From NCBI GenBank assembly GCA_963740905.1, contig CAVUFY010000008.1, forward strand, positions 190,444-254,443: a stretch of DNA of 64,000 nt, read 5' to 3'. Source of the stretch: an uncultured delta proteobacterium. GTDB taxonomy: Bacteria > Desulfobacterota > DSM-4660 > Desulfatiglandales > HGW-15. Of the stretch, positions 23,598 through 38,075 are shown piece by piece; position 1 is the stretch's first letter, and the number at the start of each line of letters is the position of its first letter. A program made the translations under genes and the position numbers. The notes below the pieces were generated by a model, which did no database searches, was not told where the DNA came from, and worked only from the letters and a program-made list of their open reading frames with translations.

Positions 23598-24976
23598 TTA
23601 TTCGCTCACAAGCTTGTCCAATATCCTGTGAATCTCCTCTTCGGGCAATACCGCTTCCTCGACGGCTGCTTCCCGGATGGTCCGGTTCGTTTCAAAAGCC
23701 TTCTTCGCCAGAGCCGCGGCCCTATCATATCCAATGTATGGAACCAAGGGCGTTGCCAAAGCGAGACTCTGTTCCAAAGAGGAGGAACATTTTCCCTTGT
23801 TGGCCGTGATGCCCTTGACACACTTCTCCGCCAGAACAGAGGCCGCCTCAGCCAGCCATTCTATGGACTGAAGCAGATCATAGGCCATAACGGGGAGCAT
23901 CACGTTGAGTTCAAAGTTGCCTGCCTGTCCCCCCAACGTGATCGCGCTGTCGTGGCCGATCACCTGAGCGCACACCTGAAGGACGGCTTCAGGAATGACC
24001 GGGTTCACTTTTCCCGGCATAATGGATGAGCCGGGTTGAAGGCTGGGAATGGTGATTTCACCAATACCGCACCGCGGTCCTGAAGAGAGCCAGCGAATGT
24101 CATTGGCGATCTTGATGAGACTCACTGCGATGGTCTTGAGAATCCCGCTTGCCTCGACAACCGAATCCTGCGCAGCCTGCGCTTCAAAATGGTTCACAGC
24201 TTCCCTTAATGAAATGCCCGTCTCATCTGATATCCTCGCGATCACCTTTGAAGCAAACTCAGGATGAGTATTCATCCCGGTTCCGACTGCCGTGCCTCCC
24301 AACGCGACCTCTGAAAGCCGCGGTTCCACCGCCCGAAGACGCTCCATCCCCAGTTGGACCTGCCGGGCGTAGCCGCTGAACTCTTGCCCGAGAGTCACAG
24401 GGACCGCATCCTGAAGATGGGTTCGGCCGATTTTCTTGATCTCGCGGAAAGCGTTGCTCTTTTCTTCCAGCGCTGTCCGGAGTCGATCCAAGGCAGGGAT
24501 AAGATGGGTCTCTATTTGAATTAATGCTGCGATGTGAATCGCTGTGGGGATGACATCGTTGCTTGACTGACCGAGATTCACGTGGTCATTGGGGTGGATG
24601 GGAACCTTCCCCCCCGCCGACCTGTGATCATTTCGTTGGCCCGGCCGGCGACGACCTCATTTGCATTCATGTTGGTAGAGGTCCCTGAACCGGTCTGAAA
24701 CACGTCTACCACAAATTGGGCATCTAGCTTTCCCTGGCAAACCTCCTCGGCTGCCGATGCGATCATCTCAGCCACATCCGGATCGAGGCGACCGAGTTCC
24801 TTGTTCACAAAGGCTGCATGCTTCTTGATCATGCCGAGGGCCCGGATCATGAACTTCGGAAACTTGAGCCCGCTCACGATGAAATTCTCCGCTGCACGTT
24901 GTGTCTGCGCGCCATAGTAAGCGCTTTCCGGTACTTTCACCTCGCCCATGCTGTCTTGCTCGGCACGAAAGTTCAT
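23598..24976 (-). pseudogene. fumC: Class II fumarate hydratase split by a one-base frameshift in a G7 run (24609-24615)
   Basis: N-half ([24 protein letters not shown]) and C-half ([26 protein letters not shown]) are in different frames. One extra G restores ...[15 protein letters not shown] and a 459-aa protein. Confidence 0.88.
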
Positions 24977-25028
24977 GATAAACACTCCTTTCTGTTTCCG
25001 CACGCTCCGCGTCGGAGACGCCTTCCTT

Positions 25029-25138
25029 TGGGGCTTCCACCATGACCCACTGACTTTTCGGCGCCGATTGACGCCACTGCAAAAGTGGTTGCGGCTCTTA
25101 AGAGACCACCCCTGGGCCGGACCTTAGACCTTCTCCGC
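25029..25138 (+). repeat. Repeat family F, longest copy (between citrate synthase and fumC)
   Basis: Aligns with 6691-6783 and with the reverse complement of 6399-6452. Confidence 0.75.
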
Positions 25139-25234
25139 GGCGGGAGAGGGCAAAACTCCGGCGGCCTCGGAACGAGAGAAAGAGAGTCATGATCCTTATC
25201 ATAGTTTCATTAAGCTGAAATGATACGCGCCGGA

Positions 25235-34791: not shown

Positions 34792-34792
34792 A

Positions 34793-36514
34793 TCAGTATT
34801 TCCTTGGTTTTGGTGTAAAGCGGGTGACCTTCACCGGCTTGTAGAAGACTCTGGGCGCTCCCTCGGTTTTCTGGACGAGAGTATGCTTAAGCCATTCATC
34901 GTCGTCCCGGTCCTGATAGTCTTCCCGGAAGTGGGCACCCCGGCTTTCTTCCCTGAGACTGGCCGAGAGAGCAATCGTTTCAGCCAGGTCCAGAAGGCCT
35001 CGCAACTCCATTGCTTCCGTGAGATCCGTGTTAAAGCGTGTCCCCTTGTTGTGGACGGCGATATGCTTGTATTGTTCCTTGAGGTCATGAACGGTCGACA
35101 GGGCTTTGTCGAGACCCTCCGCCTTTCGAAAGCTGGCACAATTCTCCATCATCTGGACCTGGAGCAATCGCCTCACCGAATCGACCCTTTCCCCTTTTTT
35201 TCTTTCCTTCAGCTTCGTGATCTGCTCGACGCTTGCCTTCTCAGGTCGGCTCGGAGGCTCTACCCAGGGCAGTTGACCGATCTCCTGCAAAATATCCTCT
35301 CCCGCCAGCCGGCCGAATACGATCAAATCCAGGAGAGAGTTGGTGCCCAGGCGGTTCGCCCCGTGAAGAGACAGACACGCGCATTCGCCTACCGCATAAA
35401 GCCCCGGCACCGGCTGATGATCTTCGTCCAAAACCCGGCCTTGGGCGTTGGCCGGGATTCCGCCCATCATGTAATGACAGGTCGGTTTTACCGGAATAGG
35501 CTTTTCCGAGGGCTCGATGCCCGCATAGATCCTTGCAAAAGAGGCGATCTCGTGAAGCTTTTCCGACAGGACTTCTTTCCCCAGATGGGTCAGGTCCAGG
35601 TGAACATAGTCCTTGCCGTCGATCCCCCTTCCTTCCCGTATCTCCCTTTCGATGGCTCTGGAGACCACATCCCTCGCAGCAAGGTCCTTAATGGTGGGGG
35701 CATATCTCTCCATAAAACGTTCCCCCTCCCCATTCCGCAGCATCCCTCCCTCTCCCCGAGCTGCTTCACTGATTAGAACTCCAACACCATAAATGCCCGT
35801 AGGATGAAATTGGACAAACTCCGGGTCTTCCAGCGGAACACCGGCCCTGTATGCAAGTGCGGCGCCGTCGCCGGTGTTGGCATGACCGTTCGATGTGGTT
35901 TGGTAAAGCCTCCCGAATCCACCGGTAGCGAGCACCAGGACCCGGCTGTGAAAAAAATGCACCTCGCCCGTGGCCAGTTCATAAGCGACCAGGCCCGTCA
36001 CCGCGCCTCCCCGGCGAATCAGGTCCACCATGTAGAACTCGGGGTAGACCTTGATCCCACGCCGTACGGACTCTGCATAAAGGGTGTCCATGATGACCCG
36101 GCCCGTGTGATCGGAAGCATAACAAGCTCTTTTGACCGTTTTCTTGCCGAAATCGCTCGTGTGCCCGCCAAAGGTCCTCTGCGCTATCTTCCCCATCCCG
36201 TTGCGATTGAACGGTACACCCAGGTGCTCCAACTCATAAACAGCCCTGGGTGCCTCTTTGGCAAGGATTTCAGCCACATCCTGATCCGTCAGATAGTCTC
36301 CGCCCTTGACGGTGTCGAACATGTGCCATTCCCAGGAATCCTCTTCTTCATTCCCCAGCGCAGCCGCCATACCTCCCTGGGCCGCGCCTGAATGGGACCT
36401 CGTGGGGTACACTTTGCTGATCACCGCAACGTCCACTTTGCCGGCCAGTTCAAGAGCCACTCTCAAACCGGCCAGCCCGGCACCGACGATGATGACGTCA
36501 TGTTTAAAAACCAT
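34793..36514 (-). CDS. sdhA: Succinate dehydrogenase/fumarate reductase flavoprotein subunit
   Basis: [16 protein letters not shown] (covalent FAD His), [32 protein letters not shown]. Confidence 0.96.
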
Positions 36515-37019
36515 GTTGTCTATGCCTTTCTCTCCGTGATCAAACCCGCCGACGCGGCTTTCCTGCTGCGAACATGGACTTTTTCAGCACCCTGCTAGAT
36601 TAGAAGACACCGCCACAGGGAGAAATAGGGTAAATCCTGTATTTTTTGGTCAACAGACAATGCACTTTTGCACGTGTGAGACGAGATTGTCAAAATGAAA
36701 CCTGCCGCGGTCGTGATGATTCAGTTTCGAGTGGGTCCACCTGTATCAATGAACTAGCCGCGCTCCCGGGGAGGAGTTGAAGAGATCCCTCTCCGGGGGA
36801 CGAGGCGGGTTTTTGTTCCTATATAAACGCCCCCGCAGCGAAGCGCCGGGGTACAAGTGCTCAAGACTTAATCGTTACCCGCAGCGGGCCTCACATGGAT
36901 GACACCCGGATGGTGGGATTCTCCCCCGTTGACTTTGCCTCTGCGAATGGTTATCTAACGAACGATTCTGAATTTTTCGCCAACAAGAACTTAACCACCT
37001 CATGCCTAGGAGGGGAATC

Positions 37020-38075
37020 ATGAGCCAGGAATCGCCTCTCGAGTGCCGGATACTGGAAAGGGTCAAGGAAAGAGATAAAATCGGTGTGTGGGGTTTCGGC
37101 AATGTTTCAAGGGACGTCGTGTTGTCGCTGGTGGATCAGGGACTCGGGAAGGAGATCGTTTTCTACGGAAGACCCAAGGAAAAATATCCCAACAGGGCCG
37201 GGACCTGGATCGAAGACCTGAAAGCCAACTCCATTCATCGTCCTCGCATTTACGGCACCAACCAGACTGATGACATGGCCGGTCTCGACGTGATCTTCAT
37301 CGGCGTGGGCGTTCCGCGCAAAGAGGGCCAAAGCCGGAGGGACCTTCTCGCAGTCAATACGGAGGTGATCGCCGAAGCCTCCTTCGAAATCCGCAGGCTT
37401 TATCAGGGCTGCGGGACCAAGGACTTACCCATCCTCGTTTACATGGGGAATCCTGTGACCACGATGACCTGGGTGGGTTACAAGGCTACAGGATTTCCAC
37501 GGGCAAACATTGTGGGCCAGGCCGGAAACCTGGATGCGAGAAGGATCTGCCATGCCCTATCCAAACTGATCGGTCTCTCAGGCAACGACCTGAGAGGGAT
37601 TGTCTTCGGAGAACACGGCGACTCCATGGTCGCCAGCACCCGGTTTTTCTCTGTAGGAGGGGTGCCTCTTGACGATGTTGTTCGCGCCCAGGGGATCGAC
37701 CCGGCCGTGATCAACCGCGCCATCGAAGACGCGAAAAAAGGCGGAACCCATTTCGTGAACGAAACCGGTCAGAGCGCGTCGGCGGGCCCCGCGAGGGCCG
37801 CATGTGATATGCTGCGCTGTATGATTCTCGGGGAGGCCGAGGTTCAGCCTGTGATCGCTATCTTTGAAAAGGAATACGGTCTCCTGAAAAAAGAGGACGG
37901 TCTCGATTCCATGAGTTTCGGGGTGCCTGCCAAGATTGGGCCCTACGGTGTGGAAAAGATCTACGAACTTCCGGTGGAGGATATCAGGGGCCAGTTGGAG
38001 AGATCCGCCTCCATTATCAAGGAGGACATCAAGGCCGCCGCAGGGATCCTGAAGGAAAAGTACGGCATTACCTAG
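37020..38075 (+). CDS. mdh: Malate dehydrogenase (LDH-like), atypical cofactor site
   Basis: GVPRKEGQSRRDLL (Arg specificity residue), GNPV, LDARR, GEHGDSMV; SD GGAGGGG before ATG 37020. Confidence 0.88.
   Translation: MSQESPLECRILERVKERDKIGVWGFGNVSRDVVLSLVDQGLGKEIVFYGRPKEKYPNRAGTWIEDLKANSIHRPRIYGTNQTDDMAGLDVIFIGVGVPRKEGQSRRDLLAVNTEVIAEASFEIRRLYQGCGTKDLPILVYMGNPVTTMTWVGYKATGFPRANIVGQAGNLDARRICHALSKLIGLSGNDLRGIVFGEHGDSMVASTRFFSVGGVPLDDVVRAQGIDPAVINRAIEDAKKGGTHFVNETGQSASAGPARAACDMLRCMILGEAEVQPVIAIFEKEYGLLKKEDGLDSMSFGVPAKIGPYGVEKIYELPVEDIRGQLERSASIIKEDIKAAAGILKEKYGIT

What the first reader, a model, noticed from the sequence alone, without database searches (positions are those of the whole stretch)
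23598..38075. Near-complete TCA gene cluster with the components of a reversed oxidative TCA cycle
Citrate synthase, aconitase, ferredoxin-dependent 2-oxoacid oxidoreductase, Sdh/Frd, fumarase and Mdh are clustered; icd and succinyl-CoA synthetase/transferase are not in the window. Citrate-synthase-driven reverse TCA is established in Desulfurella acetivorans and Thermosulfidibacter takaii. If the Frd module is NADPH-driven, this cluster suits the reductive direction (inference); oxidative acetyl-CoA use is equally possible.
Basis: inference. Interest (0 to 1): 0.6.

Follow-up and report, generated by a model that had tools for sequence, protein, structure and literature searches.

The report
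TCA-cycle gene cluster in sulfate reducer
This is a real, conserved cluster of citric-acid-cycle genes in an uncultured sulfate-reducing sediment bacterium. The combination (full cycle plus Wood-Ljungdahl pathway) and the idea that the cycle might run backwards are already published for close relatives. The two extra flavoprotein genes belong to the 2-oxoglutarate enzyme, not to a fumarate reductase.

Summary
Observation confirmed. On the minus strand lie sdhA, sdhB, an NfnB/GltD-like Fe-S flavoprotein, a 338-aa FAD protein, korA, korB, aconitase, citrate synthase and fumC. mdh is divergent, and a PDH complex lies beside it.

- **Rest of the cycle:** icd and sucCD lie elsewhere in the genome, so the cycle is complete. 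No ATP-citrate lyase was found.
- **Other pathways present:** Wood-Ljungdahl (ACS), two NiFe hydrogenases, dsrAB and PFOR.
- **fumC:** it is split by a 1-nt frameshift in a G7 run. It is intact in all relatives examined, so this is probably an assembly error.
- **"NADPH-driven Frd" premise:** not supported. In 25 related loci from at least three families, the two flavoprotein genes always precede korAB. sdhAB precedes them in 6 of the 25 related loci and in the window itself. SdhA is a covalent-FAD, forward-type SDH subunit without a membrane anchor gene.
- **Closest known system:** the three-subunit 2-oxoglutarate:NADP+ oxidoreductase of Azoarcus evansii.
- **Direction of flux:** sequence cannot settle it. 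A full cycle with OGOR plus Wood-Ljungdahl, and a possible roTCA, are already published for Desulfatiglans TRIP_1 and strain N47.

Verdict: a new member of a known kind, of moderate-to-low interest. The four-gene OGOR module is the more original part.

The parts
34793..36514 (-). sdhA, succinate dehydrogenase/fumarate reductase flavoprotein. It is of the forward type and keeps the covalent-FAD His motif ([12 protein letters not shown]).
   Evidence: TIGR01816 809 bits against a cut-off of 727. Best PDB match is 6lum_A (M. smegmatis Sdh), E 1e-206, with the RSH motif aligned.
34078..34791 (-). sdhB, the iron-sulfur subunit carrying three clusters. Its start overlaps the sdhA stop.
   Evidence: NF004616 284 bits against a cut-off of 228. 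PDB 6lum_B E 1e-61, with the Cys motifs aligned.
32282..34009 (-). NfnB/GltD-like Fe-S flavoprotein. It has two N-terminal [4Fe-4S] motifs, FAD and NADPH-type Rossmann motifs, and a C-terminal 2x[4Fe-4S] ferredoxin domain. The likely true start is 9 codons further in.
   Evidence: Pfam Fer4_20 + Pyr_redox_2 + Fer4_7, and NF009410 400 bits. PDB matches are NfnB-like chains 9n5u, 4ylf and 5jca, and StnC 8oh5. The motifs are conserved in 25 sequences. It lies upstream of korAB in all 25 related loci.
31193..32209 (-). 338-aa FAD protein of the ferredoxin-reductase/NADH-oxidase fold. It lacks the usual C-terminal domain, and its second dinucleotide motif is replaced by an invariant GGDLTS.
   Evidence: Pfam Pyr_redox_2. 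PDB putidaredoxin reductase 1q1r, E 3e-23. GGDLTS is invariant in 26 sequences. Its stop codon is 1 nt before the korA ATG.
29425..31242 (-). korA, the fused gamma-alpha subunit of a two-subunit 2-oxoacid (probably 2-oxoglutarate) oxidoreductase. The likely start is the ATG at 31191.
   Evidence: TIGR03710 555 bits. PDB 6n2n_A (Magnetococcus OGOR) E 6e-115 over the full length. Start codon read.
28613..29413 (-). korB, the TPP/[4Fe-4S] beta subunit.
   Evidence: TPP_enzyme_C + PFO_beta_C; NF008820 275 bits and TIGR02177 260 bits, both below their curated cut-offs of 402 and 261.9.
26558..28510 (-). Aconitate hydratase, the 650-aa single-chain type.
   Evidence: NF005558 953 bits against a cut-off of 612.
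25235..26416 (-). Citrate synthase (type II / small CS).
   Evidence: PF00285 425 bits. TIGR01800 418.5 bits against a cut-off of 421.3, so just under.
23598..25003 (-). Class II fumarase (FumC-like) gene. It is split into 24578-25003 and 23598-24581 by a 1-nt frameshift in a G7 run near 24607-24613.
   Evidence: The two ORFs match fumC_II profile positions 1-124 and 132-450. Sequence read. The gene is a single frame in all relatives examined. PDB best matches are class II fumarases.
37002..38075 (+). Divergent LDH-like malate dehydrogenase, transcribed away from sdhA. It has an NADP-like FYGRP in place of the NAD-selecting acidic residue and keeps the MDH-type Arg (GVPRK).
   Evidence: NF004863 197 bits, below the cut-off of 283. 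PDB best matches are LDH-like MDHs such as 1gv1. Sequence read. The gene is syntenic in relatives.
38134..43331 (-). Neighbouring pyruvate-dehydrogenase-type complex genes (E3, E2, E1 beta, E1 alpha). These are context, not part of the cycle.
   Evidence: TIGR01350 461 bits, TIGR01348 418 bits, NF006667 301 bits, PF00676 306 bits.

Best explanation
The region is an operon-like citric-acid-cycle cluster of a Desulfatiglandales-type sulfate reducer. Together with icd and sucCD elsewhere in the genome, it gives a complete cycle that uses a KorAB-type 2-oxoglutarate oxidoreductase instead of a 2-oxoglutarate dehydrogenase.

Shown:
- the gene identities;
- conservation of the cluster;
- completeness of the cycle;
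- the absence of a recognisable ACL;
- co-existence with Wood-Ljungdahl, hydrogenase, Dsr and PFOR genes.

Shown by synteny: the NfnB/GltD-like Fe-S flavoprotein and the 338-aa FAD protein form one four-gene unit with korA and korB. They are not a unit with sdhAB.

Inferred: this unit is a 2-oxoglutarate:NADP(H) oxidoreductase of the kind purified from Azoarcus evansii (KorAB plus a GltD-like subunit). Electrons would pass from the KorB cluster through the ferredoxin-like and N-terminal clusters of the flavoprotein to its FAD and on to NADP+. The FAD protein has no canonical NAD(P) site, so it would act as an extra flavin relay of unknown partner.

Inferred: the default flux is oxidative or amphibolic. 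Acetyl-CoA from the adjacent PDH complex would be converted to 2-oxoglutarate, succinyl-CoA and C4 acids, yielding NADPH. A separate cluster on contig C9 (PFOR, carboxylase subunit, canonical MDH, FrdAB) would serve the reductive branch.

Reversal of the cycle by citrate synthase remains possible and cannot be read from sequence. The fumC frameshift is most likely an assembly error.
For: - **Gene identities:**
- **Complete cycle:** icd and sucCD are over their curated cut-offs.
- **No ACL:** the only Citrate_bind hit (28.5 bits) is a SucC-like gene in a PrpD/CitE/GntR catabolic cluster.
- **Other pathways:** ACS, NiFe hydrogenases, dsrAB, PFOR.
- **Four-gene module:** it is invariant in 25 related loci from at least three families. 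sdhAB sits directly upstream in 6 of the 25 related loci and in the window itself.
- **Sample of 151 genomes of the order:** 24 carry the module, and 6 of these show no SdhA match at E<=1e-150. Another 8 genomes have such an SdhA match but no module.
- **Coupling:** the FAD-protein stop codon is 1 nt from the korA ATG.
- **Second example in this genome:** a second OFOR is also paired with a GltD-like gene.
- **Oxidative-leaning context:** forward-type SdhA; PDH complex, pyruvate kinase and PFK as neighbours; nqrBCDEF-like genes next to the cluster in relatives; canonical MDH, FrdAB and PFOR clustered on C9.
- **Known analogue:** the Azoarcus KGOR has a GltD-family subunit (PMC10134865) and works with korAB plus bzdV (PMC5736913).
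- **Frameshift as artefact:** fumC is in one frame in all relatives. PFOR is broken by one extra C. The ACS frame is shortened. Earlier notes list many 1-nt frameshifts in this genome.
Against: - No enzyme activity, expression or labelling data exist for this organism.
- KorAB-type OGORs are reversible, and the closest solved one (6n2n) is a reverse-TCA enzyme.
- 13C data for the related culture N47 were read as Wood-Ljungdahl running oxidatively and the TCA cycle running in reverse (PMC12137691). Co-existence with Wood-Ljungdahl therefore does not argue for oxidative use.
- An NADP-type MDH would favour oxaloacetate reduction.
- The substrate of KorAB (2-oxoglutarate) rests on context and on the best structural homologue. 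Specificity residues were not checked.
- I could not obtain the Azoarcus sequences, so homology to its third subunit is taken from the literature.
- The role of the FAD protein and the electron acceptor of the anchor-less SdhAB are unexplained.
Confidence: 0.55

Rival explanations
1. The cluster runs as a reversed oxidative TCA cycle (roTCA) for CO2 fixation or acetyl-CoA synthesis, with citrate synthase cleaving citrate. The Wood-Ljungdahl pathway would oxidise acetyl-CoA, as proposed for the naphthalene degrader N47.
For: - All the cycle enzymes are present, with an OGOR in place of OGDH.
- No ACL was found.
- Hydrogenases and PFOR are present.
- 23 of the 24 module-bearing genomes in the order sample also have ACS. 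This is the same TCA-plus-Wood-Ljungdahl combination that PMC12137691 links to roTCA and that PMC6849830 raised for Desulfatiglans TRIP_1.
- The MDH has NADP-type features.
- The closest solved OGOR is a CO2-fixing enzyme.
Against: - roTCA has no sequence signature. It depends on enzyme levels and on pCO2.
- An OGOR wired only to NADPH (about -320 mV) cannot drive succinyl-CoA carboxylation (about -500 mV) without bifurcation or free reduced ferredoxin.
- SdhA is forward-type.
- An irreversible PDH complex and glycolytic kinases are the neighbours.
- A separate PFOR/MDH/Frd cluster exists on C9.
- The N47 case itself is described as an inference ('suggests') in that paper.
Confidence: 0.25
2. 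SdhAB, the NfnB-like flavoprotein, the FAD protein and KorAB form one electron-bifurcating supercomplex. NADPH oxidation at the NfnB-like FAD would send one electron downhill to fumarate and one uphill to KorAB. The net reaction would be 2 NADPH + fumarate + succinyl-CoA + CO2 -> succinate + 2-oxoglutarate.
For: - The genes are contiguous here and in 6 of the 25 related loci.
- The flavoprotein is homologous to the bifurcating NfnB subunit.
- SdhAB lacks an anchor gene in every locus inspected.
- By my own calculation from standard potentials, the summed reaction is exergonic by about 29 kJ/mol in the reductive direction.
- A similar idea exists for TfrAB + Flx-Hdr + KorABCD in tubeworm symbionts (10.1101/363564, PMC13147460).
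Against: - The partners are separable in both directions. Six genomes have the module and no SdhA match at E<=1e-150, including two that are 97% complete. Eight have such an SdhA match and no module, including one that is 100% complete.
- In relatives, sdhAB is more regularly preceded by nqrBCDEF-like genes.
- The sdhB-to-flavoprotein spacing is loose (about 70-700 nt), whereas the FAD protein and korA are tightly coupled.
- SdhA resembles quinone-linked SDHs.
Confidence: 0.1
3. The cluster serves biosynthesis only, as a branched 'horseshoe' that makes 2-oxoglutarate and succinyl-CoA. The cycle never closes, and all energy metabolism runs through Wood-Ljungdahl and sulfate reduction.
For: - ACS is near-universal in the order (130 of 151 genomes), while the cluster is found in only 24 of 151.
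- Several paralogous Sdh/Frd, fumarase and MDH sets exist in this genome.
Against: - A full, co-linear set that includes sdhAB, fumC and mdh is more than a horseshoe needs.
- Relatives without the cluster must still make 2-oxoglutarate, so the cluster looks like an added capability.
- TRIP_1 expresses all the cycle enzymes during growth (PMC6849830).
Confidence: 0.1

Closest known systems
TCA cycle with OGOR alongside the Wood-Ljungdahl pathway in Desulfatiglans TRIP_1, NaphS2 and Candidatus Desulfobacterium N47 (PMC6849830; PMC12137691)
   Same: Sulfate reducers with a complete cycle closed by a 2-oxoglutarate oxidoreductase, no ACL, a PDH complex (TRIP_1), CODH/ACS and hydrogenase. roTCA has been explicitly proposed for them.
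   Different: Those papers describe pathways, not this gene order or the two flavoprotein genes. I could not check whether their genomes carry the same four-gene module.
2-Oxoglutarate:NADP+ oxidoreductase of Azoarcus evansii (KorAB plus a GltD-family subunit, BzdV; Ebenau-Jehle et al. 2003, as cited in PMC10134865 and PMC5736913)
   Same: A two-subunit KorAB-type OGOR teamed with a GltD/NfnB-family Fe-S flavoprotein that links it to NADP(H).
   Different: This cluster has a fourth, invariant gene for an FAD protein without an NAD(P) motif. The setting is a TCA cluster in a sulfate reducer rather than a benzoyl-CoA pathway in a denitrifier. Sequence relatedness to BzdV was not tested here.
roTCA of Desulfurella acetivorans, Thermosulfidibacter takaii and Hippea maritima
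   Same: Citrate synthase, OGOR, no ACL, and a complete set of reversible enzymes.
   Different: Those organisms lack Wood-Ljungdahl, and the pathway was shown by labelling and enzyme abundance. Nothing of that kind is available here, and this OGOR appears tied to NADP(H).
Soluble five-subunit NADH:fumarate reductase FrdABCDE of Hydrogenobacter thermophilus (Miura et al. 2008, via PMC13147460)
   Same: Frd/Sdh A and B subunits with no membrane anchor gene, encoded next to other cycle genes.
   Different: Here the extra flavoproteins track korAB, not sdhAB. SdhA is of the forward SDH type. Homology to FrdCDE could not be tested.
NfnAB / StnABC electron-bifurcating transhydrogenases
   Same: The 575-aa protein matches the NfnB-type subunit (two [4Fe-4S], FAD, NADPH site). 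Like StnC, it carries extra clusters.
   Different: No NfnA-type (FNR-like, [2Fe-2S]) partner is present, and the second flavoprotein lacks a pyridine-nucleotide motif.

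Membership tests
Complete TCA cycle gene set (either direction) | CS, aconitase, IDH, a 2-oxoglutarate-converting enzyme, succinyl-CoA synthetase, SDH/FRD, fumarase and MDH are all encoded. | tested here: met
   Window genes. icd and sucCD elsewhere in the genome. Caveats: fumC is frameshifted, but a class I fumarase is present on C13. The window's MDH is below the curated cut-offs, but a canonical MDH lies on C9.
roTCA (citrate-synthase-dependent reverse cycle) | ACL and CCS/CCL are absent, while CS and a reversible OGOR are present. | tested here: met
   Searches found no ACL, only a SucCD-like/CitE-like catabolic cluster. 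CS and KorAB.
roTCA (citrate-synthase-dependent reverse cycle) | Net reductive flux, with very high CS and MDH levels, shown by labelling or proteomics. | not testable with these tools
   Needs culture, proteomics and 13C labelling. Only literature on relatives is available (PMC12137691).
roTCA (citrate-synthase-dependent reverse cycle) | A supply of low-potential electrons (reduced ferredoxin) to OGOR. | tested here: inconclusive
   The OGOR is linked by synteny to an NADPH-type flavoprotein. Hydrogenases and PFOR exist, but no dedicated ferredoxin gene was seen in the cluster.
Classical rTCA cycle | ATP-citrate lyase, or citryl-CoA synthetase plus citryl-CoA lyase. | tested here: not met
   PF16114 gave only a 28.5-bit hit, in a SucC-like gene flanked by PrpD-like, CitE-like, GntR and ABC-transporter genes. 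PF00549 found only sucC, sucD and that SucD-like gene.
Soluble NAD(P)H:fumarate reductase with dedicated flavoprotein subunits | The extra NAD(P)H-oxidising subunits are genetically tied to frdAB/sdhAB. | tested here: not met
   The flavoprotein genes accompany korAB in 25 of 25 related loci. sdhAB adjoins them in 6 of the 25 related loci and in the window itself. In some genomes each is found without the other.
Quinone-linked succinate dehydrogenase (SdhCDAB) | Flavoprotein with the covalent-FAD His, and a three-cluster Fe-S subunit. | tested here: met
   RSHS motif and Cys motifs align to 6lum A and B. TIGR01816 and NF004616 are over their cut-offs.
Quinone-linked succinate dehydrogenase (SdhCDAB) | Membrane anchor genes (SdhC/D or equivalent) in the operon. 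| tested here: not met
   No multi-TM ORF lies next to sdhAB here or in loci L081, L083 and L085. The only Sdh_cyt hit in the genome belongs to another Sdh-like set on C13.
Azoarcus-type 2-oxoglutarate:NADP+ oxidoreductase | Two-subunit KorAB together with a GltD-family Fe-S flavoprotein subunit. | tested here: met
   Domain content and synteny. The family assignment of the Azoarcus subunit comes from PMC10134865.
Azoarcus-type 2-oxoglutarate:NADP+ oxidoreductase | 2-Oxoglutarate-specific, NADP+-reducing activity, and orthology to the Azoarcus subunits. | not testable with these tools
   No assay is possible. The Azoarcus sequences and the original paper were not obtainable.
NfnAB-type bifurcating transhydrogenase | An NfnA-type partner (FNR-like, [2Fe-2S], NAD-binding). 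| tested here: not met
   No such gene is in the cluster. The second flavoprotein has GGDLTS in place of GxGxxG, invariant in 26 sequences.

The most novel reading that the evidence does not exclude
The anchor-less SdhAB, the NfnB-like Fe-S flavoprotein, the motif-less FAD protein and KorAB work as one flavin-based bifurcating machine. It would use NADPH to reduce fumarate and, with the energy gained, drive reductive carboxylation of succinyl-CoA. This would make a ferredoxin-free, NADPH-powered reverse TCA segment in sulfate reducers that also carry the Wood-Ljungdahl pathway.
Probability: 0.1. Interest if true: 0.85.

Novelty: new member of a known kind. Interest (0 to 1): 0.36.

Why it matters
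Which way the citric-acid cycle runs in hydrocarbon-degrading, Wood-Ljungdahl-bearing sulfate reducers is an open question, recently raised by 13C work on culture N47. This cluster adds another member of that group.

It also shows that in this lineage the 2-oxoglutarate step is encoded as a conserved four-gene unit tied to NADP(H), not as a free ferredoxin enzyme. That wiring limits how a reverse cycle could be powered. It gives biochemists a defined set of four genes to express and test.

Tried and rejected
1. **NADPH-driven fumarate reductase.** Rejected on synteny and co-occurrence.
2. **An Nfn-like pair, with the 338-aa protein as the NAD(H) site.** Rejected because its second dinucleotide motif is an invariant GGDLTS.
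3. **A hidden ACL or citryl-CoA route on C14 (SucC-like, SucD-like, CitE-like).** Rejected. The neighbours are PrpD-like dehydratases, a flavocytochrome-c-like FAD protein, a GntR regulator and an ABC transporter, which points to an organic-acid catabolic cluster.
4. **A genuinely split or inactivated fumarase.** Judged unlikely. Relatives have one frame, and this assembly has other 1-nt breaks in PFOR and probably ACS.
5. **Wood-Ljungdahl presence as an argument against roTCA.** Dropped after reading PMC12137691.
6. **Steps that gave little:**
   - The genome-contig scan returned a single named locus.
   - The papers of Miura 2008, Ebenau-Jehle 2003 and Chen 2019 are not held.
   - The promoter and terminator scan did not exceed shuffles.
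   - Cluster-member names were uninformative.

Full report
**What is there.**
ORF listing and profile searches place the following on the minus strand:
- sdhA, 34793-36514
- sdhB, 34078-34791
- a 575-aa GltD/NfnB-like Fe-S flavoprotein, 32282-34009
- a 338-aa FAD protein, 31193-32209
- korA, 29425-31242 (real start most likely the ATG at 31191)
- korB, 28613-29413
- aconitase, 26558-28510
- citrate synthase, 25235-26416
- a class II fumarase gene, 23598-25003

A divergent LDH-like malate dehydrogenase (37002-38075) is read from the opposite strand. Next to it lie E3, E2, E1-beta and E1-alpha of a pyruvate-dehydrogenase-type complex (38134-43331). On the other side lie pyruvate kinase and phosphofructokinase (15803-18547).

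**Details that change the picture.**
- The fumarase gene is in two ORFs. The break is a 1-nt frame change in a run of seven G near 24607-24613. In every related locus the two halves are in one frame.
- The same assembly has an extra C that breaks PFOR and a shortened ACS frame (578 aa against about 744 in relatives). Earlier notes on this genome list many single-base frameshifts. I read the fumC break as a probable assembly error.
- A class I fumarase exists on contig C13 anyway.
- The intact fumC ortholog scores 608 bits for fumC_II (cut-off 665) and also passes an aspartase subfamily model. Its best solved relatives are class II fumarases.
- The window's MDH is below the curated MDH cut-offs. 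It keeps the MDH-type Arg and carries FYGRP where NAD-dependent enzymes have an acidic residue.
- A canonical MDH sits on contig C9 beside FrdAB and PFOR.

The window is on contig C8 of a 5.29-Mb, 23-contig genome. A 70%-identical locus is labelled Desulfatiglandales.

| Function | Result |
|---|---|
| NADP-isocitrate dehydrogenase | Present, over its equivalog cut-off. Seen twice because C1 is a 97% copy of the end of C11. |
| sucCD | Present |
| ATP-citrate lyase | Not found. The only Citrate_bind hit (28.5 bits) is a SucC-like gene flanked by SucD-like, CitE-like, two PrpD-like, a flavocytochrome-c-like, GntR and ABC-transporter genes. That is a catabolic cluster, not a citrate-cleaving system. 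|
| ACS (Wood-Ljungdahl) | Present |
| NiFe hydrogenases | Two present |
| dsrAB | Present |
| PFOR | Present (frameshifted) |
| Other Sdh/Frd-like sets | Three more |

**Whose partners are the two flavoproteins?**
I fetched 25 related loci from at least three families of the phylum.
- All 25 show the order flavoprotein, FAD protein, korA, korB.
- Aconitase, citrate synthase and fumC usually follow.
- sdhAB sits directly upstream in 6 of the 25 loci, as it does in the window itself. In one further genome (G129) the two lie on the same contig.
- Elsewhere the upstream genes are nqrBCDEF-like, mdh or unrelated.

In a 151-genome sample of the order:
- 24 genomes carry the module and 26 carry a close SdhA match.
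- 18 carry both.
- 6 carry the module only. Two of these are 97% complete.
- 8 carry the SdhA match only. One of these is 100% complete.

Other points:
- In genomes of the SdhA-only group, sdhAB follows nqrBCDEF-like genes or precedes acn-gltA or fumC.
- The FAD-protein stop codon is 1 nt from the korA start. The sdhB-to-flavoprotein gap ranges from about 70 to 700 nt.
- A second OFOR in this genome also has its own GltD-like neighbour.

The flavoproteins therefore belong with KorAB. The premise of an NADPH-driven Frd module is not supported.

**What the proteins look like.**
- **KorA:** it matches the Magnetococcus OGOR (6n2n) over its full length, E 6e-115.
- **575-aa protein:** it matches NfnB-type subunits (9n5u, 4ylf, 5jca) and StnC (8oh5), including its C-terminal ferredoxin-like part. 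Its Cys motifs, FAD motif and an NADPH-type GAGFTAFDC...R motif are conserved in 25 sequences.
- **338-aa protein:** it has the ferredoxin-reductase fold (1q1r). Its second dinucleotide motif is GGDLTS in all 26 sequences. I do not expect it to bind NAD(P)H in the usual way. This agrees with an earlier first-reader note.
- **SdhA:** it passes the 'forward' SDH equivalog model. It aligns at E 1e-206 with a mycobacterial quinone-linked Sdh and keeps the covalent-FAD histidine motif.
- **SdhB:** it has all three cluster motifs.
- **Anchor:** no anchor gene lies next to sdhAB here or in the other loci I inspected.

**Closest known systems.**
- **Azoarcus evansii KGOR:** a published phylogeny places one subunit of its 2-oxoglutarate:NADP+ oxidoreductase in the GltD/NfnB family (PMC10134865). 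Its genes are referred to as korAB plus bzdV (PMC5736913). This is the best functional analogue of the module. The invariant FAD protein is an addition. I could not obtain the Azoarcus sequences or the original paper.
- **Five-subunit NADH:fumarate reductase of Hydrogenobacter, and 'incomplete' AB-type fumarate reductases near rTCA genes:** reviewed in PMC13147460. That review also recounts the proposal that TfrAB, Flx-Hdr and KorABCD form a bifurcating complex in tubeworm symbionts (10.1101/363564).

**Direction of the cycle.**
Published work on relatives matters here.
- Desulfatiglans TRIP_1 has and expresses a full cycle closed by an OGOR, a PDH complex and the Wood-Ljungdahl pathway. Its authors already raised roTCA (PMC6849830).
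- For culture N47, 13C labelling was interpreted as Wood-Ljungdahl running oxidatively and the TCA cycle running in reverse. Eleven genomes with this combination were listed (PMC12137691).
- In my sample, ACS is found in 130 of 151 genomes of the order and in 23 of the 24 that carry the module. Co-existence with Wood-Ljungdahl does not speak against roTCA.

For an oxidative or amphibolic role:
- the forward-type SdhA;
- the PDH, pyruvate kinase and PFK neighbours;
- Nqr-like genes beside the cluster in relatives;
- the Azoarcus precedent;
- the separate PFOR/MDH/Frd cluster on C9.

For a reductive role:
- the N47 precedent;
- the NADP-type MDH;
- the reversibility of KorAB-type enzymes.

An OGOR fed only by NADPH could not carboxylate succinyl-CoA unless electrons are bifurcated. 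By my estimate from standard potentials, coupling to fumarate reduction would make the summed reaction exergonic by about 29 kJ/mol. I therefore keep a bifurcating SdhAB-Kor supercomplex as the novel case. The separability of the two gene sets keeps its probability low.

**Verdict.**
The components for roTCA are present, but the Frd inference is wrong and the direction is undecidable from sequence.
- The organism-level picture is already in the literature, so this is a new member of a known kind.
- The conserved four-gene, NADP(H)-linked OGOR unit and the anchor-less SdhAB are the parts that deserve experiments.

Noticed in passing
L039:150-4353, L040:3442-7548, L084:1524-5849, L086:1685-5892 (relatives): An nqrBCDEF-like gene set with no nqrA in view lies directly upstream of sdhAB, or of the flavoprotein-korAB module, in many relatives. 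The window's own genome lacks it; the best match is 33-34% identity, Rnf-like, on C20. It may be the real membrane partner of the anchor-less SdhAB.
   Followed up: partly
G000:C13:403100-409812 (locus L079): Class I fumarase alpha and beta, an SdhA-like gene (553 aa) and a small Sdh_cyt protein are followed by one open frame of 906-947 aa. That frame holds SdhB-like, Rieske, cytochrome b and cytochrome c domains. In G539 it is two ORFs (67-71% identity). In G016 it is one frame with a single stop. This is an unusual complex II / bc-type arrangement.
   Followed up: partly
G000:C9:31500-41100 (locus L078): A 'reductive branch' cluster: OadA/pyruvate-carboxylase-B-like gene, a 235-aa unknown, FrdA (637 aa), FrdB, a canonical MDH (TIGR01763 467 bits) and PFOR. 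The PFOR is broken by one extra C near C9:39270.
   Followed up: partly
G000:C14:78000-92000 (locus L077): SucC-like (426 aa), SucD-like and CitE-like genes lie with two PrpD-family genes, a flavocytochrome-c/TcuA-like FAD protein, a GntR regulator and an ABC transporter. This is probably a CoA-dependent organic-acid degradation cluster of unknown substrate.
   Followed up: partly
G000:C13:232000-241000 (locus L080): A second, multi-subunit OFOR (alpha 391, beta 258, gamma 181 aa) has its own 465-aa GltD/NfnB-like gene. The same pairing was noted by the scan in another genome (e1-1259750).
   Followed up: no
G000:C1:1-7410 and C11:269071-276479: These 7.4 kb are 97.2% identical and include icd. 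This is either an assembly duplicate or a second strain, so icd should be counted once.
   Followed up: yes
G000:C6:230234-232455: The ACS gene is an open frame of only 578 aa followed by a 129-aa ORF, against about 744 aa in relatives. This is probably another single-base break in the assembly.
   Followed up: partly
window 20397-23192: Downstream of fumC lie two ORFs with no family match (22788-23192 and 22076-22747) and a PF03601 (YeiH-like) membrane protein (20397-21836). Their functions are unknown.
   Followed up: no
window 37002-38075: The cluster's MDH has GFGNVS and FYGRP in its dinucleotide-binding region, which suggests NADP preference. It scores below the curated MDH cut-offs.
   Followed up: partly
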